DNA from: a phage
DNA length: 64,000 nucleotides
Strand: one strand, 5' to 3'
Assembly (NCBI GenBank): GCA_036253035.1
Contig: GCA_036253035.1_4123.1
Shown: positions 1-64,000 of the stretch, in pieces
Layout: every line of letters begins with the position of its first letter
How positions within the stretch are numbered: position 1 is the stretch's first letter
The notes under the pieces: model-generated
Database searches by the model: none
What the model was told of the DNA's origin: nothing
The model's input: only the letters and a program-made list of their open reading frames with translations
Translations under genes and position numbers: made by a program

Positions 1-598
1 ATGAACCACCACGGATAGGATGCCCACTACCACTTAAAAAGCTTTTCGGTGTAATATCAAACTCACCAAATTCAGGATCAATAATAGTTACTTTTGTTTT
101 AGTATTAATATAATTAACTTTGCTATAATCAAAATCAATGTCAGATCTCTTTTCTTTTGCTTCTTTAATAAATTGTTCTGTTGTTTTTGTTTTTTTTACA
201 ATATCGTTATTAATAGATCTAGAAGGATGTCCACAACCACTTAAAAAGTTGGTGGGTGTAATATCGAATTCACCATATTCAGGATCAATAATAGTTACTT
301 TTGTTTTAGTATTAATATAATTAACTTTGCTATAATCAAAATCAATGTCAGATCTCTTTTCTTTTGCTTCTTTAATAAATTGTTCTGTTGTTTTTTTAGA
401 TGAACCACCACGGATAGGATGCCCACTACCACTTAAAAAGTGATTGGGTGTAATATCAAACTCACCAAATTCAGGATCAATAATAGTTACTTTTGTAAAA
501 GAATTAATATAATTAACTTTACTATAATCAAAATCAATGTCAGTTCTTTTTTCTTTTGCGTCTTTAATGAATTGTTCAGTTGTTTTTTTAGCTGGCAT
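1..598 (-). CDS. tandem-repeat protein, N-terminal part (three ~65-aa repeats; gene continues past window start)
   Basis: ATG at 598 on minus strand, frame open to position 1; repeat unit FIKxAKEKRxDIDFDYSKVNYINxxTKVTIIDPEFGEFDITP..SGxGHP; resembles nucleic-acid-binding repeat modules found with phage homing endonucleases, Cys mostly lost. Confidence 0.55.
   Translation of the reverse strand, partial: MPAKKTTEQFIKDAKEKRTDIDFDYSKVNYINSFTKVTIIDPEFGEFDITPNHFLSGSGHPIRGGSSKKTTEQFIKEAKEKRSDIDFDYSKVNYINTKTKVTIIDPEYGEFDITPTNFLSGCGHPSRSINNDIVKKTKTTEQFIKEAKEKRSDIDFDYSKVNYINTKTKVTIIDPEFGEFDITPKSFLSGSGHPIRGGS
1..598. repeat. tandem direct repeat, about 3 copies of a ~200 bp unit (coding)
   Basis: near-identical blocks starting near 1, 205 and 400 (e.g. 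ccacttaaaaag...caggatcaataatagttacttttg recurs). Confidence 0.8.
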
Positions 599-648: not shown

Positions 649-676
649 AAAAAAGGCTGACCGAAGTCAACCTTTT
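649..676 (-). terminator. rho-independent terminator (GGUUGAC-UUCG-GUCAGCC hairpin + U tract)
   Basis: plus aaaaaaGGCTGACCGAAGTCAACC; on minus strand perfect stem with one G-U pair, UUCG tetraloop, followed by U run. Confidence 0.8.
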
Positions 677-6101: not shown

Positions 6102-6126
6102 AAAAAAGGCTGACCGAAGTCAACCC
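6102..6126 (-). terminator. rho-independent terminator, conserved UUCG hairpin
   Basis: aaaaaaGGCTGACCGAAGTCAACC. Confidence 0.8.
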
Positions 6127-7177: not shown

Positions 7178-7202
7178 CAAAAAAAGGCTGACCGAAGTCA
7201 AC
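7178..7202 (-). terminator. rho-independent terminator, conserved UUCG hairpin
   Basis: aaaaaaaGGCTGACCGAAGTCAACC. Confidence 0.8.
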
Positions 7203-7213
7203 CTTTAGTTTTA

Positions 7214-8767
7214 TCATTTACCGTATTTGCTCATGATGTCCTTTTCCCAATGAGTTACGTTACCGTTATCGTAATCTTTAAAGGAATTATCAAGAGTAGT
7301 TAATGCATATTCGTATGCTTCAGGTGATTCAATGTCAACATCATCAGCACCATTTACTAAATCAGTCCATGCTTTTTGTAGTTTACGAGCATTTTTACCA
7401 ACATTACTTTTAATCCAACTAATGTTTTTGTTGATACTCTTATTATCAGCACCAGCTTTTTTACCAATATCGGATATCCACATCATTAGCTTTTGGAGTT
7501 CATGAATGGAGTTGTCGTTCATTTCACGATCTTTAGCCAATTCTGCTTCCATGCCATCAGTATCAGTACCATCTTTAGAACCTACATCAATTCCATGTTT
7601 AGCTAATAGTTTACCAAGTTCAAAGAATGCTGCCTCAGCAGGGAAGTCATAACCTTTGTCTTTGTAGTTGTTCCATGCACTATCAAACTCATCTACAAAT
7701 CGGTTGGCATAATCTGGATTGTCCACGAGAGCTTTGTACACTGCCATTGCATGTTCAAATCCTTCTTTGTCAGAACCAAACTCTCCCATTTCTGGACGAT
7801 GAATGTAACCATCCATATCAACAGTATCAGGTAAATCATCATGAGATGTTTCAGCATCTTTCTGGTCAACTGCACCTTCTTCATCATCACGCATCAGATA
7901 ACCATCTCGTGTAACCTTCTCACCGTGATCAGCTTCATACTTTTTCATAGTATTGAATGCAGCATCCATTGCAGTTACAAAACGACTCTTTTCACCTTGT
8001 ACATAAGATTTAAGTGCATCGTTAACTGCATCAGATACTAATTTAATCTTATCGTCTTTACCTTCCAGACGGTTTTCTAACTTAGCTAGTACATTCTTAA
8101 CTTGTTGAGCATTAGCACGGTCTTCTTTACCAATACTATCAAATGTTTTAAGTACGCTTTCAAGACTTACTTCCTCTTGTGCAGGCACATCACCTTGTTG
8201 CGTACCTTCAAGTGCACGCATTATAGTACTGAATACTTCAGTTGGTTCAGTACTGGTATTTCCACTCATTGCATCAAGTACAGCTTGTGCTTTGACTTTT
8301 AATTCTTCTTTAGGTACAGATTGCAATTCTTTCACAATACCTTGGATAAGTTGTGGTTTATTAGCAAAAATCTTACCTAACTTATCAGACAATTCTTTGA
8401 CAGGGTTAACCGCCTTTGGTGCTTCTTGTTTTGGTTCTTCTTTCGCAGGAGAAGACTTTTCTTTTTCTTCACGTTCCATATCAGCTAGGCGTTGTTTTTG
8501 TGTAGCATTAAGAAGTCCCAATGAATTAACATAACGTAGCTTTTCTAGCTCAGTCATGTTCTCAGTACTCTTAACTTCACCTGCTTCTGCGTTTGCTTTA
8601 CCAGCTAGACCAGTTCCTTGGTTACGTGATCCACGTGAACCTTGACCTGCTTGATAACTATTTGGTCGGCGGTTGCGTTCACTCCATTTATCCGAGTGAC
8701 CAGCCATGTTACCACCATTTTTATCAGTAAAATTACTTGGCATTTGATTTCTCTCCATAGATTTCAT
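7214..8767 (-). CDS. large hydrophilic protein, unknown function
   Basis: 517 aa, acidic/coiled; shares KYLxSLGLL motif with 9014..9397; TATAAATA-like motif about 25 nt upstream. Confidence 0.7.
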   Translation of the reverse strand: MKSMERNQMPSNFTDKNGGNMAGHSDKWSERNRRPNSYQAGQGSRGSRNQGTGLAGKANAEAGEVKSTENMTELEKLRYVNSLGLLNATQKQRLADMEREEKEKSSPAKEEPKQEAPKAVNPVKELSDKLGKIFANKPQLIQGIVKELQSVPKEELKVKAQAVLDAMSGNTSTEPTEVFSTIMRALEGTQQGDVPAQEEVSLESVLKTFDSIGKEDRANAQQVKNVLAKLENRLEGKDDKIKLVSDAVNDALKSYVQGEKSRFVTAMDAAFNTMKKYEADHGEKVTRDGYLMRDDEEGAVDQKDAETSHDDLPDTVDMDGYIHRPEMGEFGSDKEGFEHAMAVYKALVDNPDYANRFVDEFDSAWNNYKDKGYDFPAEAAFFELGKLLAKHGIDVGSKDGTDTDGMEAELAKDREMNDNSIHELQKLMMWISDIGKKAGADNKSINKNISWIKSNVGKNARKLQKAWTDLVNGADDVDIESPEAYEYALTTLDNSFKDYDNGNVTHWEKDIMSKYGK

Positions 8768-8798
8768 TTTTTTCTCTATGTCTATATTTATAGTATAA

Positions 8799-8822
8799 AG
8801 AAAAGGCTGACCGAAGTCAACC
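8799..8822 (-). terminator. rho-independent terminator, conserved UUCG hairpin
   Basis: gaaaaGGCTGACCGAAGTCAACC. Confidence 0.75.
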
Positions 8823-8980: not shown

Positions 8981-9006
8981 AACAAAGGGCTGACCTTAGT
9001 CAACCC
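8981..9006 (-). terminator. rho-independent terminator, variant of conserved hairpin
   Basis: GGGCTGACCTTAGTCAACCCC with flanking A/T runs. Confidence 0.7.
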
Positions 9007-9013
9007 CTTTTTA

Positions 9014-9397
9014 TTACTTCTTGAACTTATGTTTTTCACTTTCGATTGCATTCACGATTTCATCATGAATTTTACGAAGATTGTGAGTTTTCTTGAGAGA
9101 ATCATGCAATGCACGGAATGCAGAGTGTACTGTTGCTTTAAAGTGCTCTTTAGGAGTTACTTTAAGTTTCTCGATAATATCACGTACATAGATTGGGTGA
9201 TCCTCAAACACACGATTAAGCTCATGACCTAGTGATTCTAGGCTAAATGCTTTTTCACGGGATGGACGATCATGTGCAAGACTTTGGTCCGGTTTTAGAA
9301 GACCTAGTGAATCTAGATACTTGTGCTTATGTGCATTGTCTAGACCAGAAATATCAACATCATGTGATGGATCTTTCTTATTCCATTTATCAACCAT
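9014..9397 (-). CDS. hypothetical protein sharing N-terminal motif with 517-aa protein
   Basis: 127 aa; KYLDSLGLLKPDQ. Confidence 0.6.
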   Translation of the reverse strand: MVDKWNKKDPSHDVDISGLDNAHKHKYLDSLGLLKPDQSLAHDRPSREKAFSLESLGHELNRVFEDHPIYVRDIIEKLKVTPKEHFKATVHSAFRALHDSLKKTHNLRKIHDEIVNAIESEKHKFKK

Positions 9398-9475: not shown

Positions 9476-9503
9476 ATTATATCATAATAAGAATGGTTGT
9501 CCC
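9476..9503 (-). promoter_or_regulatory. promoter, extended -10 (TGaTATAAT) with weak -35
   Basis: minus GGGACA-16-TATAAT preceded by TG; upstream of 9014..9397. Confidence 0.4.
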
Positions 9504-12224: not shown

Positions 12225-12248
12225 AAAAAAGGCTGACCGAAGTCAACC
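12225..12248 (-). terminator. rho-independent terminator, conserved UUCG hairpin
   Basis: aaaaaaGGCTGACCGAAGTCAACC; stop codon of 12243..12434 embedded in hairpin. Confidence 0.75.
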
Positions 12249-18895: not shown

Positions 18896-19105
18896 TTATT
18901 CTTTCTCACCAACAAACAGTTTAACTTTTGTATTACTGTTATAACACCACATCTGTTCTTTGTTAATAGACATCCAGATATTTTTATTGACCTGTTCGTA
19001 GGTACTATCACGAACAGAAATACATTGATTCATGGAATTCATTGGAGTGATTTGTACACCGCTTTGCATGGAAAGAGCTACTACTAAAAAGATTACTGAA
19101 TTCAT
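18896..19105 (-). CDS. small secreted protein
   Basis: 69 aa; signal-peptide-like N-terminus. Confidence 0.5.
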   Translation of the reverse strand: MNSVIFLVVALSMQSGVQITPMNSMNQCISVRDSTYEQVNKNIWMSINKEQMWCYNSNTKVKLFVGEKE

Positions 19106-19693
19106 TGGATATTCCTTAATGGTTAATCATCCATCTCTTCGAGATGTCTGTTCGCTTCTAATACTACGTATTCTACGCGAATGATCAATAACTGTCAAGG
19201 ACTTTTAATATTGACGGGATTTGAGGAAGGGATTTTTCTTCCCCCCACAAGGAGGGAAATTTGACGCTGATGGTATCAGAGCTATTGCATTGAAGATTAC
19301 TCATAACGAGTGCGAAAGCGGGTCATCCTGTTTCTCTCTACTTCAGTTTCATATGACGGTCTACACTTTTAAACATAGTGTATCTTCATTAAGTATCTAT
19401 GCAATCAAATACTTAATGTGAGTACTCAAATTTTGGACGCAACTTTCCTGTACAAAATTCGATAACTCTCCCTTAGATAATTCGTAAGGTGTTATCCTTA
19501 TATGTCTATCAAGGAACCACCAGCTATCCTAACGTGGTTCTTTATACAGCCGCATTGCCGTGAGGGGTTCAAACTATGCCCACATCTAACGGGTTTCTTT
19601 TGCTGTTCGCACTGTCGGACTGCTCAACTGCCCTCTACGTTTTCGAGTGGATCAGGTACATGAATATCATGCCAACAGAATTGTACAAGATAA
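19106..19693 (-). ncRNA. candidate structured non-coding RNA (unclassified)
   Basis: about 590 bp with no credible ORF in a tightly packed genome, locally GC-richer, multiple stem-loops, extended -10 promoter upstream and terminator of sigma gene further upstream. Confidence 0.3.
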
Positions 19694-19704
19694 TTATATC
19701 ACAA
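19694..19704 (-). promoter_or_regulatory. extended -10 promoter element (TGTGATATAAT)
   Basis: same 11-mer recurs at 39745 and 63615 upstream of genes. Confidence 0.4.
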
Positions 19705-19723
19705 ACTTTTACTTCATCCCATA

Positions 19724-19755
19724 AAAAAAGGTTGGCATAAGCCAACCTTTTTTCT
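19724..19755. terminator. bidirectional rho-independent terminator
   Basis: aaaaaaaGGTTGGCataaGCCAACCtttttt. Confidence 0.8.
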
Positions 19756-20721
19756 TTAGAAATCTTCGTATTCGTACCCTTTTGCAAGTACTAGCTTCTT
19801 AAGCTTTTGCATAGCTTCACTGTACTTTCGATGTATTGATGAACGGGATTTAACATATTTTCCATTATCATCAACAAAACCATTATCAGCAATCTCACGA
19901 AGCGTTTCAGGTTCATATTCACCTAGACCATGAACACGATGGATAATCTCACGTTCTTTAGTACTCAATTCGTTAGTCAGTTCATTGATAGCATAACGTA
20001 AAGGTGCACGAATACTATCAACATTGAGGTTAAAATCAGAAGCAGGTGAATGAATAATGTCACCTAGTGTACCATCGGTAACACCGTCTAATGGTGCATC
20101 CAGAGAAGTGTATTCGCTTTGAAATAACAAACAGTTATTAACATGCTGAATCTCAATCCCAGTACCCTCTGAGATTATTTCAGGAGTTGGGCGAACACCA
20201 TGTTTACGCATATATTCCTGGCAGAATCTTTTTACTTTGATCTTATGAACACTCATATAACGTGGGAAGTGTACCATATAGTTAGCGTCAGAACTTTCGT
20301 TATAAACTGTCATGTAAATACTAGAAGAAGCATAGGTAATGAACTTAACATTCTTATTAAGATCAAAGGTTTTTAGTGCTCTCATGAACCCCTCAACACC
20401 ATATGAAATCTTATCTTCAAATGGGATATAACAAGTACATTTACTTGCTACATCAATAATAAGTCCATAATTGTAACGAACTAACAGTTCAGTGTTTTTC
20501 TTTACATTGATACCAGCTTGAATATCACGAATTAGATCTTCATTGGAAACATTTGGTGGTCGCTTAAGTGTAATATTATATTTGAAACTGCTTTGTACTT
20601 TACCTTCATTTTCATCTTTATCTTCAACGAAATCTAAGGCTTCTAGTGTGTTGACTTCTTCATTAGCAAAACATTCATCCAGAACTTCTTCGGCAATTGT
20701 ATTTAAATCAAGCTTTTTCAC
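19756..20721 (-). CDS. RNA polymerase sigma factor, sigma-70 family
   Basis: 321 aa, GTG start with AGGAGA RBS; region 2 EGFMRALKTFDLNKNVKFITYA and region 4-like TLREIAD..SRSSIHRKYSEAMQKLKK. Confidence 0.7.
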   Translation of the reverse strand: MKKLDLNTIAEEVLDECFANEEVNTLEALDFVEDKDENEGKVQSSFKYNITLKRPPNVSNEDLIRDIQAGINVKKNTELLVRYNYGLIIDVASKCTCYIPFEDKISYGVEGFMRALKTFDLNKNVKFITYASSSIYMTVYNESSDANYMVHFPRYMSVHKIKVKRFCQEYMRKHGVRPTPEIISEGTGIEIQHVNNCLLFQSEYTSLDAPLDGVTDGTLGDIIHSPASDFNLNVDSIRAPLRYAINELTNELSTKEREIIHRVHGLGEYEPETLREIADNGFVDDNGKYVKSRSSIHRKYSEAMQKLKKLVLAKGYEYEDF

Positions 20722-20742: not shown

Positions 20743-21240
20743 TCAAAATCGATATACATTAATATTATCATCTGTGAAGCAATCATGGTTATGCACATCC
20801 ATGAAAGTACTAAACACTTTATCATATAAAGTTGTATGTTCTTCATGAATAGCAGCATCTAGCATGTATTCTCCACCACTACCCATAAAGAAAGTGTAGT
20901 CTTCATGTAGATATTCAAGTTTTTTAATAAACTTTCCTTTAGTTAAAATCATATGAATAACATAATCTTTAGAAAGAAGCACACAATGGCAACTTAACTT
21001 TCTGTCAGGTATAACTGGTACTTTATTAATTAACCAATCCAGTACTTTATCAATTTCACTTACTGACCCACTAGCACTGAATAAACGGTCATGTACATAT
21101 AAAGTTTTTTGATTAACAACTCCATATTGATATTTTGGTCTTAGTGGGAAAAAACCAAATAAGTTTCGTGGTATAGTTGACGTAACTCTAGAATCGGTAA
21201 TCAATAAATTTAATCGTTTATCAATATAAACAGTTGTCAT
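20743..21240 (-). CDS. hypothetical protein
   Basis: minus ORF 165 aa. Confidence 0.6.
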   Translation of the reverse strand: MTTVYIDKRLNLLITDSRVTSTIPRNLFGFFPLRPKYQYGVVNQKTLYVHDRLFSASGSVSEIDKVLDWLINKVPVIPDRKLSCHCVLLSKDYVIHMILTKGKFIKKLEYLHEDYTFFMGSGGEYMLDAAIHEEHTTLYDKVFSTFMDVHNHDCFTDDNINVYRF

Positions 21241-21927: not shown

Positions 21928-22001
21928 AATGTTTTCCTTTTTAGCTGATAATTAAATTAGGAGCACATTGTACTCCATATTATTTGTTATGTAAAATACT
22001 T

Positions 22002-22287: not shown

Positions 22288-22316
22288 ATTATATATAACA
22301 TACTAAATTATGTCAA
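22288..22316 (-). promoter_or_regulatory. sigma-70-type promoter (TTGACA-17-TATAAT)
   Basis: plus attata(22288-22293)..tgtcaa(22311-22316). Confidence 0.6.
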
Positions 22317-25401: not shown

Positions 25402-25517
25402 AAAAACACCTCATTATTCATTCACTACATGATAACACCAAATCATACACCAGTCAAACTCATTTTTTGGATATGCATAATAAATACGTTATAATAATTA
25501 TACCAATGGAGGGATAA

Positions 25518-26672
25518 ATGTCAAGGTCAATTGCTGCGGCTGGACACTATAAGTTTGGTGAATGTGGTTATGTTGTTGATGGTGCAATCCTCAACGATGG
25601 AACTAGACTAAAAAATATTAGAATCTATCGCCAAAGAAGCCATAGATTATATGATTTAGTTGATCCAAGAACTAATATAATATATCGTAAAGTACAAATA
25701 ACAACTAAAGATAATAAAGGTTATCTATTAAATTACAATAAAACTAATGACCAACTATTAAGTGAAATTAATAAAAATTGTTTCTTTGTTCGTGGATATT
25801 CTGAAGAGCCACAAGAAACTGATACTGGATTTGTATATAAATTTATGCTACATAAAACAATTTTAGGTAGTTCACAAACCTTGTATCATATGTATACACC
25901 TGAATGTGGTATTATAGATCGTGATATAGATAATATTCTCATTTCACCAGTATTTGTTGGTAATGACTCAATTAGTGGTAAATTATTCAACACTGGTTCA
26001 GAAATTGATACTAACGGTATGGTAATAACAATCGTATTACCAGACGGGACAGAATACTTTACTACCCAATTTGTTAATGATGCATTTACAATTCCAGTTG
26101 ATGTTATCACACAATCAGGGAAAGGTACTGCTACGCTCACTTCTCCATATTATAACACTAAAGTGGTGGAATTTGATGTTCTTGAAAGTGGTGAGGATAT
26201 TGATTTTGTTACATCAGTTCTTCTATCCCAATTTGAACCTGTTTCGGAAGGTGTATTTTCTGCGGTTGTTCCATTTGATGTTCATGATCGTGGACAGTAC
26301 TTAGCACTTCAAGCATACAGTGGTGACTTATATCAAGTTGGTGTAGATCTTTCTGTAGACGCAGAAGGTAATATTACTGTGTATCAAACTGATAATTTAC
26401 CTGTTTCTTTGAGTATAATCGGAAAAACACTGCATACTACTCCTTTCCATAAAGAATATACTTTAAGTGAGTGGGTTCTCGGTGAAGACTCTATGTACTC
26501 TATCTCAGTTCCAGTAACTGAACATGGTAAAGCACTACCACAAGTTCAATTATATTCTTCAGACAATCATGTAGTTCATAGTGAAATACAAGTGGATGAA
26601 GATGATAATGTAATTCTTAAAGTAGTAGAACCGCTTGACTGCTCAGTCGTAATAGTTGGTTACAACGCATAA
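25518..26672 (+). CDS. hypothetical protein; only plus-strand gene in window
   Basis: 384 aa; strong RBS GGAGGG; upstream TAATAAATA late-promoter-like motif; followed by bidirectional terminator. Confidence 0.7.
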   Translation: MSRSIAAAGHYKFGECGYVVDGAILNDGTRLKNIRIYRQRSHRLYDLVDPRTNIIYRKVQITTKDNKGYLLNYNKTNDQLLSEINKNCFFVRGYSEEPQETDTGFVYKFMLHKTILGSSQTLYHMYTPECGIIDRDIDNILISPVFVGNDSISGKLFNTGSEIDTNGMVITIVLPDGTEYFTTQFVNDAFTIPVDVITQSGKGTATLTSPYYNTKVVEFDVLESGEDIDFVTSVLLSQFEPVSEGVFSAVVPFDVHDRGQYLALQAYSGDLYQVGVDLSVDAEGNITVYQTDNLPVSLSIIGKTLHTTPFHKEYTLSEWVLGEDSMYSISVPVTEHGKALPQVQLYSSDNHVVHSEIQVDEDDNVILKVVEPLDCSVVIVGYNA

Positions 26673-31991: not shown

Positions 31992-32081
<90 letters not shown>

Positions 32082-32093
32082 AGAAGTAAGATA

Positions 32094-32194
<101 letters not shown>

Positions 32195-32249
32195 GCCAAG
32201 TGTCGGCATAGGTGCAGCACTACAAAGTACTTCAAGCTGTTTGGCAGTC

Positions 32250-32336
<87 letters not shown>

Positions 32337-32338
32337 TA

Positions 32339-32464
<126 letters not shown>

Positions 32465-32483
32465 GCATACTCGAAGTACCTCT

Positions 32484-32589
<106 letters not shown>

Positions 32590-32633
32590 AATTGCTTTAT
32601 AAGCTACTGAATCGGGAATCACAACCTCCCCAT

Positions 32634-33151
<518 letters not shown>

Positions 33152-33172
33152 TTATACCTCTCATTGTTTATG

Positions 33173-33244
<72 letters not shown>

Positions 33245-33248
33245 TAAT

Positions 33249-33856
<608 letters not shown>

Positions 33857-33907
33857 ATAAACCTCACTATACGTAACTTACACCATATACGTCTGATTGT
33901 GGAATTC

Positions 33908-33932
33908 ATTATATCAGTACTGAACTATTTAG

Positions 33933-33936
<4 letters not shown>
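33908..33936 (-). promoter_or_regulatory. sigma-70-type promoter (TTGACT-17-TATAAT)
   Basis: plus attata(33908-33913)..agtcaa(33931-33936). Confidence 0.6.
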
Positions 33937-34345
<409 letters not shown>

Positions 34346-34355
34346 GCTTTTTTTT

Positions 34356-34517
<162 letters not shown>

Positions 34518-34521
<4 letters not shown>

Positions 34522-34678
34522 AATCGTACCAGTAGTTCAATTAAGTACATTTCATATGCTGGATCGTTGATAAGTTTATCATACAGATGTGGCTCTGAAA
34601 TGAATTCCCAATGATACTTTAGCCATCTACCGATACCCGAATATCTAAAATTAATGTCATTCATCCATTCTTCATGTG

Positions 34679-34682
<4 letters not shown>
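34518..34682 (-). CDS. MTHEEW-family mini-protein (54 aa), copy 2
   Basis: MTHEEWMNDINFRYSGIGRW..; ATGA overlap with copy 1. Confidence 0.5.
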
Positions 34683-34843
<161 letters not shown>

Positions 34844-34866
34844 GGTTTTTAACCTTTAATTAAAAT

Positions 34867-34943
34867 TGGCCGAGGTAGAGGGACTTGAACCCCCAACCTA
34901 GAGATTAGAATTCTCTTGCACTATCCAATTGTGCTATACCCCG
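34867..34943 (-). tRNA. tRNA-Arg (anticodon UCU), CCA encoded
   Basis: acceptor CGGGGTA/TACCTCG, T-arm GGGGG-TTCAAGT-CCCTC, anticodon loop AUUCUAA. Confidence 0.8.
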
Positions 34944-34947
34944 TATT

Positions 34948-35063
<116 letters not shown>

Positions 35064-35096
35064 ATGTTATGTCCCATTATATAATGAATTAATGAT

Positions 35097-35315
35097 TTAT
35101 GCAAGTGCTTTAGATACACCGACACCAATAATTCCAGTGATATCGATATGGATATTGGCAAGTTGATTACTATCATATGGGTTTGTTTCTGTAATAACCA
35201 ATGTTGTATCATTGACTAAAACCACAGTACCTTTTACACGATAACCATGTAGTAGTACTTGAACCTCATCTTCAGGTTTTAATGATTGAATAACTTCAAA
35301 TAAAGTTGTTTCCAT
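35097..35315 (-). CDS. hypothetical protein
   Basis: track ORF 35097..35423; ATG 35315 with AAGGA RBS avoids overlap. Confidence 0.45.
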   Translation of the reverse strand: METTLFEVIQSLKPEDEVQVLLHGYRVKGTVVLVNDTTLVITETNPYDSNQLANIHIDITGIIGVGVSKALA

Positions 35316-35331
35316 TTTTTGTATTCCTTGT

Positions 35332-35514
35332 TTAGTTTTGATTATTTGACTTTCTAAATGCCAGTTCGCATATAAACCAGGGTTTTCTGGTATCCAAAAC
35401 ATATGACCTGAAAAGATTTTCATCTCTTAATATATCATAATGTACCTGACGAATGCCATTCCCAAAGCAGTCATGTTCTTTATGCTGTTTGGACATCCAT
35501 TCTTCGTGTGTCAT
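35332..35514 (-). CDS. MTHEEW-family mini-protein
   Basis: MTHEEWMSKQHKEHDCFGNGIRQVHYDIL.. Confidence 0.5.
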   Translation of the reverse strand: MTHEEWMSKQHKEHDCFGNGIRQVHYDILRDENLFRSYVLDTRKPWFICELAFRKSNNQN

Positions 35515-35515
35515 T

Positions 35516-35851
<336 letters not shown>

Positions 35852-39451: not shown

Positions 39452-39661
39452 TTACTTACGATTTGCTTTACGCAGTTCAGATAGTTCTTCTTGAAGACTT
39501 TTCTTCCATGCAATCAAGTGAGCAAAACGGATTGGCCTTGCACCAGTACCGTGGAATACTGCTAGAGCTTCTTCTGCTTGATGAATCTGGAATTGAATGT
39601 AGTTCACAGTGCGGTCGAAGTCGGTGATATCTAGTACTTGTGCGTTAGTTTCTTTAGCCAT
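39452..39661 (-). CDS. hypothetical protein
   Basis: minus ORF 69 aa. Confidence 0.5.
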   Translation of the reverse strand: MAKETNAQVLDITDFDRTVNYIQFQIHQAEEALAVFHGTGARPIRFAHLIAWKKSLQEELSELRKANRK

Positions 39662-39744: not shown

Positions 39745-39772
39745 ATTATATCACAATATCTGTTCTTGTCCA
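39745..39772 (-). promoter_or_regulatory. promoter, extended -10 TGTGATATAAT with TGGACA -35
   Basis: plus attata(39745-39750), tcaca, tgtcca(39767-39772). Confidence 0.55.
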
Positions 39773-40625: not shown

Positions 40626-41458
40626 TTCGTATCCTTCAATTTACTAAAGTTTTCTCGTGTAAATCCAGGAACTGGAAAATATACATCACAGTCAACATCA
40701 GGATTCATAATTACCATGTCATTACATATTATATCACGAATTTTACTGCCGTCCACGATTTTTTGCATTAAATCATTCCATTTTTTACGAGAAATAACGA
40801 ATGTACTAATTATACATAAATCATGTCCACGTTTTGAAATATATCCTAGTACTTCATTATCGTAAACAACACGTATGGTAACTTTTCCAATTGTAACCCC
40901 TCTTACTGGATTAATACTAGTATCTTCAAAAATTAATTCTAATTTAAGTTTACCATTCGAAATAAGTGATGAAGTATATTTAGAAACCATTTTATCAATT
41001 TCTTGAGTTAAATCATCTCTACCTAGATATTCAAATACAGAATAAGTTAATTCGTCTGCATCTAACTGTTGGATAGTTGGAAGCTGTGCAACCATATCTA
41101 AAGATACAGGTTCGATATATATTCTTTCAATATCAGAAGATTGTACAAATAGACAACCATCAGGTGTCGTATCTCTAACAATTTCGGCATAATATGTATA
41201 AAGATAAAAAACATTAGACTCTGATGAGTCAGTTTCTACCCAAATCTCAGATTGTTTCATTTCATCTTTATGAAGAATTCGTTGAGTAAATCCTATGTAA
41301 AAACCAAGATATAAATCATCATCAGTTTCAAACGGATTAAACATCAAATACGGATATTTGTCAAGGTACTCATTGAACTTACGCTGTACATCTCTATCAC
41401 AATCCATGATATACTTTCGGAATTCAGAAATGATTATTTTTTCTAATGACATAATCAA
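40622..41458 (-). CDS. hypothetical protein
   Basis: minus ORF 278 aa. Confidence 0.65.
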   Translation of the reverse strand: MIMSLEKIIISEFRKYIMDCDRDVQRKFNEYLDKYPYLMFNPFETDDDLYLGFYIGFTQRILHKDEMKQSEIWVETDSSESNVFYLYTYYAEIVRDTTPDGCLFVQSSDIERIYIEPVSLDMVAQLPTIQQLDADELTYSVFEYLGRDDLTQEIDKMVSKYTSSLISNGKLKLELIFEDTSINPVRGVTIGKVTIRVVYDNEVLGYISKRGHDLCIISTFVISRKKWNDLMQKIVDGSKIRDIICNDMVIMNPDVDCDVYFPVPGFTRENFSKLKDTK

Positions 41459-63614: not shown

Positions 63615-63625
63615 ATTATATCACA
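63615..63625 (-). promoter_or_regulatory. extended -10 promoter element (TGTGATATAAT)
   Basis: minus catgTGtgaTATAATgttt; inverted copy of the same motif 16 bp away. Confidence 0.4.
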
Positions 63626-63632
63626 TGTTTTT

Positions 63633-64000
63633 CTACCATTTCAAAAATTCGTTAACATCAAGTTCGTACTTCAATGAATCTACCATATGTAGTCCAATCA
63701 AAAACAAACAGTATGATGCAACAGAGCTTCCACGACCTAGACCCCAAAAGATCTCATTTTCTTCCATATAATCAACAAGCCATATCATACATCTTAATAG
63801 CTTTGTCATATTATAATATTCATATAAATCTAGTTCATACTCAACACGCTTTCGTGCTTCATCTGATGTACATTTTTGTAAGAAAAAGTCACGTAGATTT
63901 ATATTATCGTATACTGGATCATAACGCCAAAGTTCATGATTTTTATCATGCTCGATAGTATAATCCAGCATACGTTGTTCTAAGCCAAATTTTTTACAGT
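63633..64000 (-). CDS. DnaE (family-C polymerase) N-terminal-region homolog, C-terminal part of an ORF that starts beyond window end
   Basis: frame open to 64000; ..RVEYELDLYEYYNM..IWLVDYMEE..GLGRGSSVASYCL..ELDVNEFL parallels E. coli DnaE ..RLETELQVINQMGF..YFLIVMEF..GPGRGSGAGSLVAYAL..DLLFERFL as I recall it; ORF stops where PDFDVDF would follow. Confidence 0.5.
   Translation of the reverse strand, partial: CKKFGLEQRMLDYTIEHDKNHELWRYDPVYDNINLRDFFLQKCTSDEARKRVEYELDLYEYYNMTKLLRCMIWLVDYMEENEIFWGLGRGSSVASYCLFLIGLHMVDSLKYELDVNEFLKW

What the first reader, a model, noticed from the sequence alone, without database searches (positions are those of the whole stretch)
19756..20721. Phage-encoded sigma-70-family factor alongside two promoter classes
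The 321-aa protein has recognisable sigma region 2 and region 4. The window shows (a) many near-consensus TTGACA-16/17-TATAAT promoters with a CAGTACTG spacer and (b) a distinct extended -10 class TGTGATATAAT lacking a good -35 (19694, 39745, 63615). TATAAATA-like motifs also precede 7214..8767 and 25518..26672. A phage sigma factor may redirect RNA polymerase to one of these classes.
Basis: partly seen in the sequence, partly recalled or inferred. Interest (0 to 1): 0.55.

Follow-up and report, generated by a model that had tools for sequence, protein, structure and literature searches.

The report
Jumbo-phage sigma factor and its promoters
The gene is a real, already annotated sigma factor of a giant E. 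coli phage, and comparing related phages suggests it switches the host RNA polymerase to one promoter type, GGGACA-16 bp-TATAAT, that drives the phage's replication genes.

Summary
The window is an Asteriusvirus jumbo coliphage (121Q/PBECO4/phAPEC6 group, 99-99.8% identical). ORF 19756..20721 (-) is their annotated 321-aa sigma-70-family factor, so the gene is not new.

All three promoter motifs are real and far above chance. It reads GGGACA, then exactly 16 bp, then (TGTGn)TATAAT. In phAPEC6 it occurs 26 times on the coding strand and 0 times on the other. It precedes replication genes, tRNAs, a structured non-coding RNA and the gene for a second, T4 gp55-like late sigma.

At orthologous promoters in eight related phages the -10 element stays nearly the same (XaC1 differs), but the box changes: GrGACA, TGAACA or GAAACG. 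The box tracks the residues of the sigma region-4.2 recognition helix, not overall sigma similarity. PA5oct has no detectable homolog of this sigma and carries canonical TTGACA there.

Most likely cascade:
- Host sigma-70 reads the perfect TTGACA/TATAAT early promoters, including the sigma operon.
- This sigma reads the GGGACA class (inferred).
- The gp55-like sigma reads (T)ATAAATA before virion genes.

A similar three-class scheme was predicted for CBB and GAP32. Nothing has been tested experimentally.

The parts
19756..20721 (-). 321-aa phage sigma-70-family factor (121Q gp167, phAPEC6 gp066c). It has an acidic, disordered N-terminus (residues 1-49), regions 2, 3 and 4, and a 7-10-residue insertion in the region-4.2 helix-turn-helix turn.
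   Evidence: annotated in relatives
22288..22316 (-). Perfect TTGACA-N17-TATAAT promoter heading the gene string that ends with the sigma gene. This is the host sigma-70 (early) class.
21967..21995 (-). Weaker sigma-70-like promoter, TTTACA-N17-TACAAT (10 of 12), inside the same gene string.
20743..21240 (-). Gene immediately upstream of sigma, probably co-transcribed. Weak HslV-family peptidase match.
   Evidence: PHROG 1040, E 1.3e-6; annotated HslV in fEgEco12; no Pfam hit
19729..19748 (-). Intrinsic terminator hairpin (GGTTGGC-TTAT-GCCAACC plus a T run) ending the sigma transcript.
   Evidence: Sequence; ARNold terminator annotated at the same place in G17
19693..19720 (-). GGGATG-N16-TATAAT with TGTGA before the -10. 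A phage-specific ('middle') promoter directly after the sigma terminator.
   Evidence: the same layout with each lineage's own box occurs after sigma in fEgEco12 and RaK2
19200..19686 (-). Gene-free stretch transcribed from the 19720 promoter. A structured non-coding RNA with three paralogs elsewhere in the phage genome. End coordinates are approximate.
   Evidence: no Rfam match
35048..35075 (-). GGGACA-N16-TATAAT (TGTGA before the -10), directly upstream of tRNA-Ser and tRNA-Arg.
39745..39772 (-). TGGACA-N16-TATAAT (TGTGA) before ORF 39452..39661.
9476..9503 (-). GGGACA-N16-TATAAT (TATGA) before ORF 9014..9397.
40728..40755 (-). TGGACG-N16-TATAAT (CGTGA). Probable member of the same class, lying inside an ORF.
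63615..63644 (-). TGTGATATAAT with TTGAAA 18 bp upstream. Class ambiguous: a sigma-70-like extended -10 promoter.
8785..8792 (-). TATAAATA late-type (T4 gp55-type) motif before virion structural gene 7214..8767.
25480..25486 (+). ATAAATA late-type motif before plus-strand virion structural gene 25518..26672.

Best explanation
The ORF encodes a genuine sigma-70-family initiation factor belonging to a clade found only in RaK2-like jumbo phages.

- Shown: it lies in the small-ORF region behind a perfect host sigma-70 promoter, and it is followed by a terminator.
- Inferred: it is made early, binds host core RNA polymerase, and directs it to a phage-specific bipartite promoter. That promoter is GGGACA at the -35 position, a fixed 16-bp spacer, then TATAAT usually preceded by TGTGn.
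- Shown: that class precedes replication and nucleotide-metabolism genes, the tRNA cluster, four paralogous structured RNAs and the gene for the gp55-like late sigma.
- Inferred consequence: a three-step cascade. Host sigma-70 reads TTGACA-N17-TATAAT. This sigma reads GGGACA-N16-TATAAT. The gp55-like sigma reads (T)ATAAATA before virion genes.
For: 1. Sigma identity. Residues aligned to the sigma-70 residues I recall as the -11A pocket and Asn383/Leu386 are kept (F419, E420->D, R423->K, K426, F427, T429, Y430). This fits a TAnnnT-type -10 element.

2. A distinct class in phAPEC6 (98.8% identical to the window across the 3-kb sigma region):
- GGGACA (at most 1 mismatch)-N16-TATAAT occurs 26 times on the coding strand and 0 on the other. 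Simulated genomes give about 1.9.
- Spacer is 16 in 22 of 25 sites, against 29 of 68 for the TTGACA class (Fisher p = 1e-4).
- TGn precedes the -10 in 21 of 25 sites, against 17 of 68 (p = 4e-7).

3. Location: two sites before ssb; others before the RNaseH-like gene, the DnaB-domain gene and a Dda-type helicase, next to the UvsW-like helicase gene, and before the gp55-like sigma gene (with annotation).

4. Covariation at orthologous promoters in eight phages. The box changes while the -10 stays nearly constant (XaC1 differs).
- GrGACA in the window, fEgEco12, EJP2 and 7t3; helix R..HR.
- TGAACA in RaK2; helix R..HY.
- GAAACG in CBB and XbC2; helix K..SR.
- XaC1's box was predicted from its helix and then found.
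- 7t3 and EJP2 sigmas are closer overall to CBB (45% and 40%) than to the window (38% and 36%), yet share the window's helix and box. RaK2 is closest to the window (45%) and differs in both.

5. The hosts differ little in sigma-70 region 4.2 (from my own knowledge, not tested here). A box that changes between phages therefore points to a phage-encoded reader.

6. PA5oct is a relative with no detectable homolog of this sigma. It has TTGACA-N17-TATAAT before ssb and primase.

7. No GGGACA-class site precedes the sigma gene itself.
Against: - There are no expression or biochemical data for any sigma-encoding member of this phage group.
- The -10 is the sigma-70 consensus with a strong extended -10. 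Host sigma-70 could therefore use these promoters without any -35 contact.
- The phage sigma lacks several sigma-70 residues: the W433/W434 dyad, Q437/T440 (Y-M in the window and RaK2; R-Q in 7t3 and CBB) and H455/E458. Region 2.4 varies between lineages that share the same -10.
- Only three box types exist, and sigma and promoters share ancestry. Covariation cannot exclude another co-evolving phage protein.
- The helix-turn-helix carries an unusual insertion of unknown effect.
- 'Early' and 'middle' are inferred from gene content only.
Confidence: 0.55

Rival explanations
1. Host sigma-70 transcribes the GGGACA class through its perfect extended -10. The box is bound by a different phage protein: an activator or a sigma-appropriation pair, as in T4 MotA/AsiA. 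The phage sigma then serves other, unidentified promoters.
For: TGTGnTATAAT is an optimal sigma-70 extended -10 element. The sigma-70 residues that read -12 and TG are not kept in the phage sigma. T4 uses this logic for middle promoters, and AsiA homologs are reported in some group 2 jumbo phages (PMC7824862). An HTH regulator sits two genes upstream of sigma in CBB and XbC2.
Against: The box sits exactly where sigma region 4 binds, with a rigid 16-bp spacer. The MotA box is centred near -30 (my own knowledge). The box type follows the sigma region-4.2 helix residues, not overall similarity. No other enriched promoter motif for the sigma turned up in unclassified upstream regions, apart from sigma-70-like early variants. 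The HTH neighbour is not annotated at that position in the Asteriusvirus, fEgEco12, 7t3 and RaK2 loci viewed. AsiA and MotA homologs could not be searched for here.
Confidence: 0.25
2. The protein is a general substitute for, or competitor of, host sigma-70. It would keep all TATAAT-type phage promoters active or shut off host genes, without a promoter class of its own.
For: Its closest cellular relatives are group 1 and 2 sigmas. The -10 elements of classes (a) and (b) are identical. Reviews treat such factors only generically (PMC13282480).
Against: The residues aligned to sigma-70's -35 readers are changed (E585->S, R588->H, Q589->R), so reading TTGACA is not expected. A conserved, lineage-specific box would be unexplained.
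Confidence: 0.12
3. The sigma reads the TATAAATA-like late class. The first reader left this option open.
For: Such motifs lie in the same window.
Against: The genome encodes a separate gp55-family late sigma (PHROG 234, E 8e-18). The motif precedes virion genes genome-wide. T4-type late promoters have no -35 element, while this protein keeps a conserved region 4.
Confidence: 0.03

Closest known systems
E. coli RpoD (sigma-70) and RpoS (group 1 and 2 sigma factors)
   Same: Regions 2, 3 and 4 align over residues 74-283 (E 1e-14 to 1e-17). Several region-2.3 residues and Arg584 are kept. The predicted fold matches sigma chains in RNA polymerase complexes.
   Different: It scores 87.8 bits against a cut-off of 354 for the RpoD model. 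There is no region 1.1 or non-conserved-region match, and no Trp433/Trp434. Residues 437, 440, 455, 458, 585, 588 and 589 are changed. A 7-10-residue insertion sits in the region-4.2 HTH turn. Only 15 representative proteins match below E 1e-30, then there is a gap before cellular sigmas.
'Divergent RpoD-like promoters' of phages CBB and GAP32 (PMC5259590)
   Same: The same phage group and the same three-class scheme: RpoD-like early promoters around the sigma gene; a class with a normal -10 and an odd -35 before DNA-synthesis genes and the gp55-like gene; and ATAAATA late promoters. I recovered the CBB sites directly.
   Different: The CBB box is TGAAACG and the Asteriusvirus box is GGGACA. 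The passages I read of that paper did not link the class to the sigma's region 4 or compare lineages.
Bacillus phage SPO1 gp28; coliphage phiEco32 gp36; Salmonella phage 7-11 gp47
   Same: These are phage-encoded sigma-70-family factors that replace the host sigma on host core polymerase to read phage-specific promoters. 7-11 gp47 reads a bipartite GTAAtg-N16-aCTA element (PMC8948821; SPO1 via PMC13401047).
   Different: No close sequence relation was seen: no phiEco32-like or SPO1 record appears in the rows listed, which shows 60 of 125 records. Those promoters have non-sigma-70 -10 elements. Here the -10 is the host consensus and only the -35 box differs. Those factors have been tested biochemically; this one has not.
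T4 middle (MotA/AsiA) and late (gp55/gp33/gp45) transcription
   Same: The temporal logic is the same, and so is the late motif TATAAATA. The gp55 homolog sits next to gp46/47-like genes, as in T4. The middle class keeps a sigma-70-type, often extended, -10 element.
   Different: T4 has no replacement sigma for middle genes; it remodels sigma-70. Here a full-length sigma is the candidate reader, and the box is at -35 rather than -30.

Membership tests
Sigma-70 family (Pfam Sigma70_r2, r3, r4; TIGR02937) | Region 2 domain (core binding, -10 recognition) | tested here: met
   Pfam r2 scores 23.0 bits, just under the cut-off of 24. TIGR02937 scores 42.9, equal to its cut-off. PDB sigma chains align from residue 74 onward. 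N84, D103, G108, G111, Y130 and A131 are invariant or nearly so across 28 homologs.
Sigma-70 family (Pfam Sigma70_r2, r3, r4; TIGR02937) | Region 3 domain | tested here: met
   Pfam Sigma70_r3 scores 37.7 bits against a cut-off of 25.3, over residues 162-226.
Sigma-70 family (Pfam Sigma70_r2, r3, r4; TIGR02937) | Region 4.2 helix-turn-helix that reads the -35 element | tested here: inconclusive
   Pfam r4 scores 22.7 bits against a cut-off of 24.1 and covers only residues 251-279. The recognition helix aligns with sigma-70 residues 582-598 only after a 7-10-residue insertion in the turn. The AlphaFold model is confident there (pLDDT 83-88) and shows two short strands in the insertion.
Sigma-70 family (Pfam Sigma70_r2, r3, r4; TIGR02937) | Binds core RNA polymerase and confers promoter-specific initiation | not testable with these tools
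   Requires pull-down and in vitro transcription.
RpoD (group 1 primary sigma), the label used in several GenBank records | Score above the RpoD equivalog cut-offs, with region 1.1, region 1.2 and the non-conserved region present | tested here: not met
   TIGR02393 scores 87.8 against 354. NF004208 scores 63.6 against 555. The N-terminal 49 residues are acidic and disordered, with no model match.
RpoD (group 1 primary sigma), the label used in several GenBank records | Trp433/Trp434 dyad and the -35 readers Glu585, Arg588 and Gln589 | tested here: not met
   The aligned residues are S/S, and S, H, R.
T4 gp55 late sigma family | Match to gp55-family profiles | tested here: not met
   This protein hits only PHROG 351. 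The gp55-family hits (PHROG 12791 and 234) belong to a different gene, phAPEC6 gp237c.
Phage 'middle' sigma (functional class: SPO1 gp28, 7-11 gp47) | Early expression from a host-sigma promoter | tested here: inconclusive
   A perfect sigma-70 consensus promoter lies at 22316 and no GGGACA-class site precedes the gene. The timing itself has not been measured.
Phage 'middle' sigma (functional class: SPO1 gp28, 7-11 gp47) | A cognate promoter class distinct from the host's, located before middle genes | tested here: inconclusive
   The class exists and covaries with the sigma's region 4.2. The link to this protein is inferred, not demonstrated.

The most novel reading that the evidence does not exclude
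RaK2-like jumbo phages run a cascade with two phage sigmas. The first tier is a full-length replacement sigma whose region 4 carries a hairpin insertion in the helix-turn-helix. It has evolved different -35 specificities in different lineages (GrGACA, TGAACA, GAAACG) while keeping the host's -10. That would make it a natural series of altered-specificity sigma region-4/-35 pairs. The same factor would also drive a family of four structured non-coding RNAs.
Probability: 0.45. Interest if true: 0.55.

Novelty: new member of a known kind. Interest (0 to 1): 0.4.

Why it matters
A 2026 review still says only that jumbo-phage sigma homologs "likely" direct host polymerase to phage-specific promoters (PMC13282480). 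This analysis gives a concrete, testable promoter for one such factor and places it in a defined cascade.

It also points to three natural helix/box pairs that could be swapped to test how sigma region 4 reads DNA. For people engineering or using these coliphages, it gives candidate orthogonal sigma/promoter pairs and better operon annotation.

The gene itself and the general idea are not new.

Tried and rejected
- Rfam at gathering thresholds over the whole window, and at E<=1 over 19000-19800, found only tRNAs and sub-threshold sRNA noise.
- Folding the non-coding stretch alone was not significant (z = -1.16). Only the alignment of paralogs showed structure.
- Pfam gave nothing for the four genes upstream of sigma or for six other ORFs next to promoters.
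- The CBB consensus TGAAACG is rare in the window, because the Asteriusvirus box differs. Searching for it would have missed the class.
- An nhmmer profile of the RNA did not match the PA5oct RNA-seq-defined ncRNA001 or ncRNA002.
- The IMG/VR scan returned only 12 loci and no new recognition-helix types.
- More divergent helix types exist among metagenomic representatives, but their contigs could not be fetched with the tools allowed.
- The supplement of Iyer et al. is not held, so the distribution of AsiA and MotA could not be checked.
- I considered the sigma reading the late class and rejected it (see rival explanations).
- A fourth motif, AGTACTTGCA-N17-TATAAT with an A-tract upstream, turned out to be a sigma-70-like early family at 325-343 kb of phAPEC6, outside the window.

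Full report
**What the window is.** A 3-kb stretch around the finding is 99.8% identical to Escherichia phage ECO103 4-12-1. It is 98-99% identical to G17, Sharanji, 121Q, phAPEC6 and PBECO4, all Asteriusvirus jumbo phages of about 350 kb. In these records the ORF is already annotated as an RNA polymerase sigma factor: 121Q gp167, G17_00146, phAPEC6 gp066c. Almost all genes in the window are on the minus strand.

**The protein.** ORF 19756..20721 (-) starts with GTG behind AGGAG and encodes 321 aa.
- Pfam finds Sigma70_r3 above its cut-off, and r2 and r4 just below theirs.
- PHROG 351 'RNA polymerase sigma factor' matches at E 5e-60.
- NCBIfam RpoD_Cterm matches at E 8e-25, but with 87.8 bits against a cut-off of 354.
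- Solved RpoD, SigA, SigB and RpoS chains align to residues 74-283 at E 1e-17 to 1e-10.
- An AlphaFold model has mean pLDDT 69.9. The three sigma domains score 76-89, and residues 1-49 are acidic and disordered.
- All 50 Foldseek PDB matches listed are sigma factors in polymerase complexes.

It is therefore a sigma-70-family protein, but not an RpoD ortholog. A search of 1.8 billion representative proteins finds only 15 with E<1e-30, then a gap before cellular sigmas. Among deposited phages the family is confined to RaK2-like jumbo phages:
- Asteriusvirus, 99%
- UE-S1, 84%
- A4, 73%
- fEgEco12 and BF17, 59%
- RaK2 and K64-1, 43%
- 7t3, 37%
- GAP32, CBB and fHe-Yen9-04, 35%
- XbC2, 31%

**Residue comparison with E. 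coli sigma-70.** Residues 373-578 come from the HMMER alignment.
- Kept: F419, E420 (as D), R423 (as K), K426, F427, T429, Y430, N383 and L386. I recall these as the pockets for the flipped -11A and -7T. That role is my own knowledge, not tested here.
- Changed: W433/W434 to S/S, Q437 to M, T440 to Y, H455 to Y, E458 to V.
- In region 4.2, Arg584 is kept. E585, R588 and Q589 become S, H and R.
- An insertion (GFVDDNGKY) sits in the HTH turn. It is 7 to 10 residues depending on the alignment. G281, D284 and G287 are invariant in the family.

**Promoter motifs in the window.**
- Twelve perfect TTGACA-N16-18-TATAAT sites, all on the coding strand, against 0.21 expected.
- Four TGTGATATAAT sites, all on the coding strand, against 0.27 expected.
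- CAGTACTG is not a promoter feature as such. It occurs 37 times, mostly in ORFs.

**The 'extended -10' class has its own -35 box.** I assembled 350 kb of phAPEC6 and aligned all TATAAT sites.
- Sites with GGGACA (at most 1 mismatch) form a separate population. There are 25 sites, 24 of them on the coding strand. The spacer is exactly 16 in 22 of them, and TGn precedes the -10 in 21.
- The TTGACA class has 68 sites. Spacers of 16, 17 and 18 occur 29, 28 and 10 times, and TGn occurs in 17. Fisher tests give p = 1e-4 for spacer and p = 4e-7 for TGn.
- At spacer 16 the counts are 26 on the minus strand and 0 on the plus strand. Simulated genomes give about 1.9.
- Near-consensus sigma-70 promoters (100 on the minus strand, 14 on the plus) concentrate at 20-80 kb and 310-340 kb, among small ORFs.

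The GGGACA class lies:
- before ssb (two sites), the RNaseH-like gene, a DnaB-domain gene and a Dda-type helicase, and next to the UvsW-like helicase gene;
- before the tRNA cluster;
- before genes at 200-286 kb;
- before gp237c, the late sigma (with annotation).

In the window the members are at 9503, 19720, 35075, 39772 and probably 40755. The site at 63644 has TTGAAA at 18 bp and is ambiguous.

**The late class.** In phAPEC6, (T)ATAAATA precedes the major head protein, the prohead protease, gp226c, the baseplate wedge, gp245, the tail sheath and other virion genes. The genome encodes a gp55-family sigma next to gp46/47-like genes (PHROG 12791 at E 3e-154 and PHROG 234 at E 8e-18). The two window genes behind such motifs both belong to 'virion structural protein' PHROGs. 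This class is accounted for without the 321-aa sigma.

**Comparison across the phage group.** I fetched the ssb-centred replication module from RaK2, CBB, 7t3, fEgEco12, XbC2, EJP2, XaC1 and PA5oct, and their sigma genes. Promoters occur at orthologous positions: two before ssb, and others before RNaseH, primase and more. All have TGTGnTATAAT, but the box 16 bp upstream differs.

| Phage | Box | Residues aligned to sigma-70 584-591 |
|---|---|---|
| Window / phAPEC6 | GGGACA or GAGACA | RSSIHRKY |
| fEgEco12 | GGGACA or GAGACA | RSSLHRKY |
| EJP2 | GAGACA | RCTIHRRY |
| 7t3 | GGGACA, spacer 17 | RTSLHRCY |
| RaK2 | TGAACA | RGTLHYKF |
| CBB, XbC2 | GAAACG | KATLSRRY |
| XaC1 | GAAAC(G/A) | KPTLSRRY |

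- XaC1's helix led me to predict a CBB-type box before I looked. It has GAAAC(G/A)-N16, with a different -10 region, TGTTCTATACT.
- All eight further KATLSRRY-type loci from IMG/VR carry (A/G/T)TGAAAC(G/C/A)-N16-TATAAT preceded by TGn (TGTGn in six). The one 7t3-type locus that has such a site carries TGAGACA at spacer 17.
- Overall sigma similarity does not predict the box. 7t3 and EJP2 are closer to CBB (45% and 40%) than to the window (38% and 36%). RaK2 is closest to the window (45%). Yet the box follows the helix residues.
- PA5oct-like phages have ssb homologs in 11 records. No match to this sigma appeared with two divergent queries, even at E<=1. Their ssb and primase promoters read TTGACA-N17-TATAAT.

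**Interpretation.** The box occupies the -35 position with a rigid spacer. It changes between phages whose hosts have near-identical sigma-70 region 4.2 (my own knowledge). It tracks the sigma's recognition helix, and it reverts to TTGACA where the sigma is absent. The simplest reader is the phage sigma's region 4.

The sigma gene lies behind a perfect host-type promoter at 22316, with a weaker one at 21995. It has no GGGACA site upstream and ends at a terminator. This gives a cascade of host sigma-70, then this sigma, then the gp55-like sigma.

**Weak points.**
- The -10 is the host consensus with a strong extension, so sigma-70 could use these promoters unaided.
- The sigma's region 2.4 and 3.0 residues differ from sigma-70, and vary among lineages that share the same -10.
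- There are only three box types.
- A different co-evolving phage protein cannot be excluded.
- No transcript data exist for any sigma-encoding member.

I put the specific assignment at about 0.55.

**What is already known.**
- The CBB paper describes RpoD-like promoters clustered in the small-ORF region that holds the sigma gene. It also describes a second class with a normal -10 and TGAAACG instead of TTGACA before DNA-synthesis genes and the gp55-like gene (also seen in GAP32), and ATAAATA before structural genes (PMC5259590).
- The Sharanji paper and a 2026 review state the redirecting role as likely.
- Tested precedents for phage replacement sigmas include phiEco32 gp36 and 7-11 gp47 (PMC8948821) and the SPO1 factors.

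The new elements here are:
- the Asteriusvirus box;
- the fixed spacer and its statistics;
- the helix/box covariation;
- the PA5oct contrast.

**Side observations** are listed separately. The main ones are a structured RNA family driven by this promoter class, a striking excess of AGTACT, and a terminator-promoter cassette.

Noticed in passing
window 19200-19686 (-); paralogs in phAPEC6 at L007:35190-35730, L005:860-1320 and L006:29630-30100 (all -): The 650-bp gene-free stretch after the sigma gene is one of four paralogous non-coding elements, each about 450-500 nt and 70-80% identical. Each lies directly behind a GGGACA-class promoter. On the four-way alignment, 95% of cells are paired. 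32 of 68 pairs show compensatory double changes, against 3-7 in slid controls and 0 of 500 shuffles. The structure was predicted from the same alignment, which favours it. There is no Rfam match. The element also follows the sigma gene in fEgEco12. It is not detectably related to the PA5oct ncRNAs.
   Followed up: partly
whole window; also L009, L010, L016-L018, L020, L022: The palindrome AGTACT is 5-10 times over-represented in every sigma-encoding RaK2-like phage sampled (window 162 observed against 17 expected). It is not enriched in PA5oct (3 against 12). It falls in all three reading frames and in intergenic DNA in proportion, while control palindromes are at expectation. CAGTACTG occurs 37 times against 0.7 expected. 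Some copies sit in terminator stems, and some directly before the -10 of early promoters. This points to selection at the DNA level for an unknown binding or modification site. I found no report of it in phages in the paper library.
   Followed up: partly
window 655-672, 1199-1216, 6108-6125, 7186-7203, 8805-8822, 8988-9005, 12231-12248 (all -): A repeated terminator-promoter cassette. The hairpin GGTTGACTTCGGTCAGCC has a UUCG loop, and its stem contains a TTGACT -35 hexamer. A T run follows, then either TATAAT 18 bp downstream or, at 8792, TATAAATA. There are 7 copies against 0 expected. The same hairpin appears in fEgEco12, CBB and other RaK2-like loci from IMG/VR.
   Followed up: partly
window 20743-21240 (-): The gene just upstream of sigma starts MTT... 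and weakly matches the HslV peptidase family (PHROG 1040, E 1.3e-6). It is annotated HslV in fEgEco12. Pfam finds nothing.
   Followed up: partly
window 1-591: About three tandem copies of a 192-207-bp unit, 82-83% matching. The unit appears to be protein-coding repeats (...FIKDAKEKR.DIDFDYSKVNYIN...GHPIRGGSS), running off the window start.
   Followed up: no
phAPEC6 325-343 kb (L008), outside the window: About 20 near-identical strong promoters of the form A-tract-AGTACTTGCA-N17-GTATAATGTTTTACAT. Each precedes a very small ORF. This is probably the immediate-early, host sigma-70 class with an UP-like element.
   Followed up: no
window 32002-35829 (-): Seven tRNA genes (Thr, Asn, Met, Ser x2, Arg, Gly). 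The Ser/Arg pair lies directly behind the GGGACA-class promoter at 35075. Others lie behind CAGTACTG-containing sigma-70-like promoters (33936, 33462).
   Followed up: no
7t3-type sigmas (L013, L027, L031): This lineage has a two-residue longer insertion in the HTH turn (GFVYTDSKG). Its GGGACA or GAGACA boxes sit 17 bp rather than 16 bp from TATAAT. This may be coincidence, or a hint that the insertion sets the spacing.
   Followed up: no
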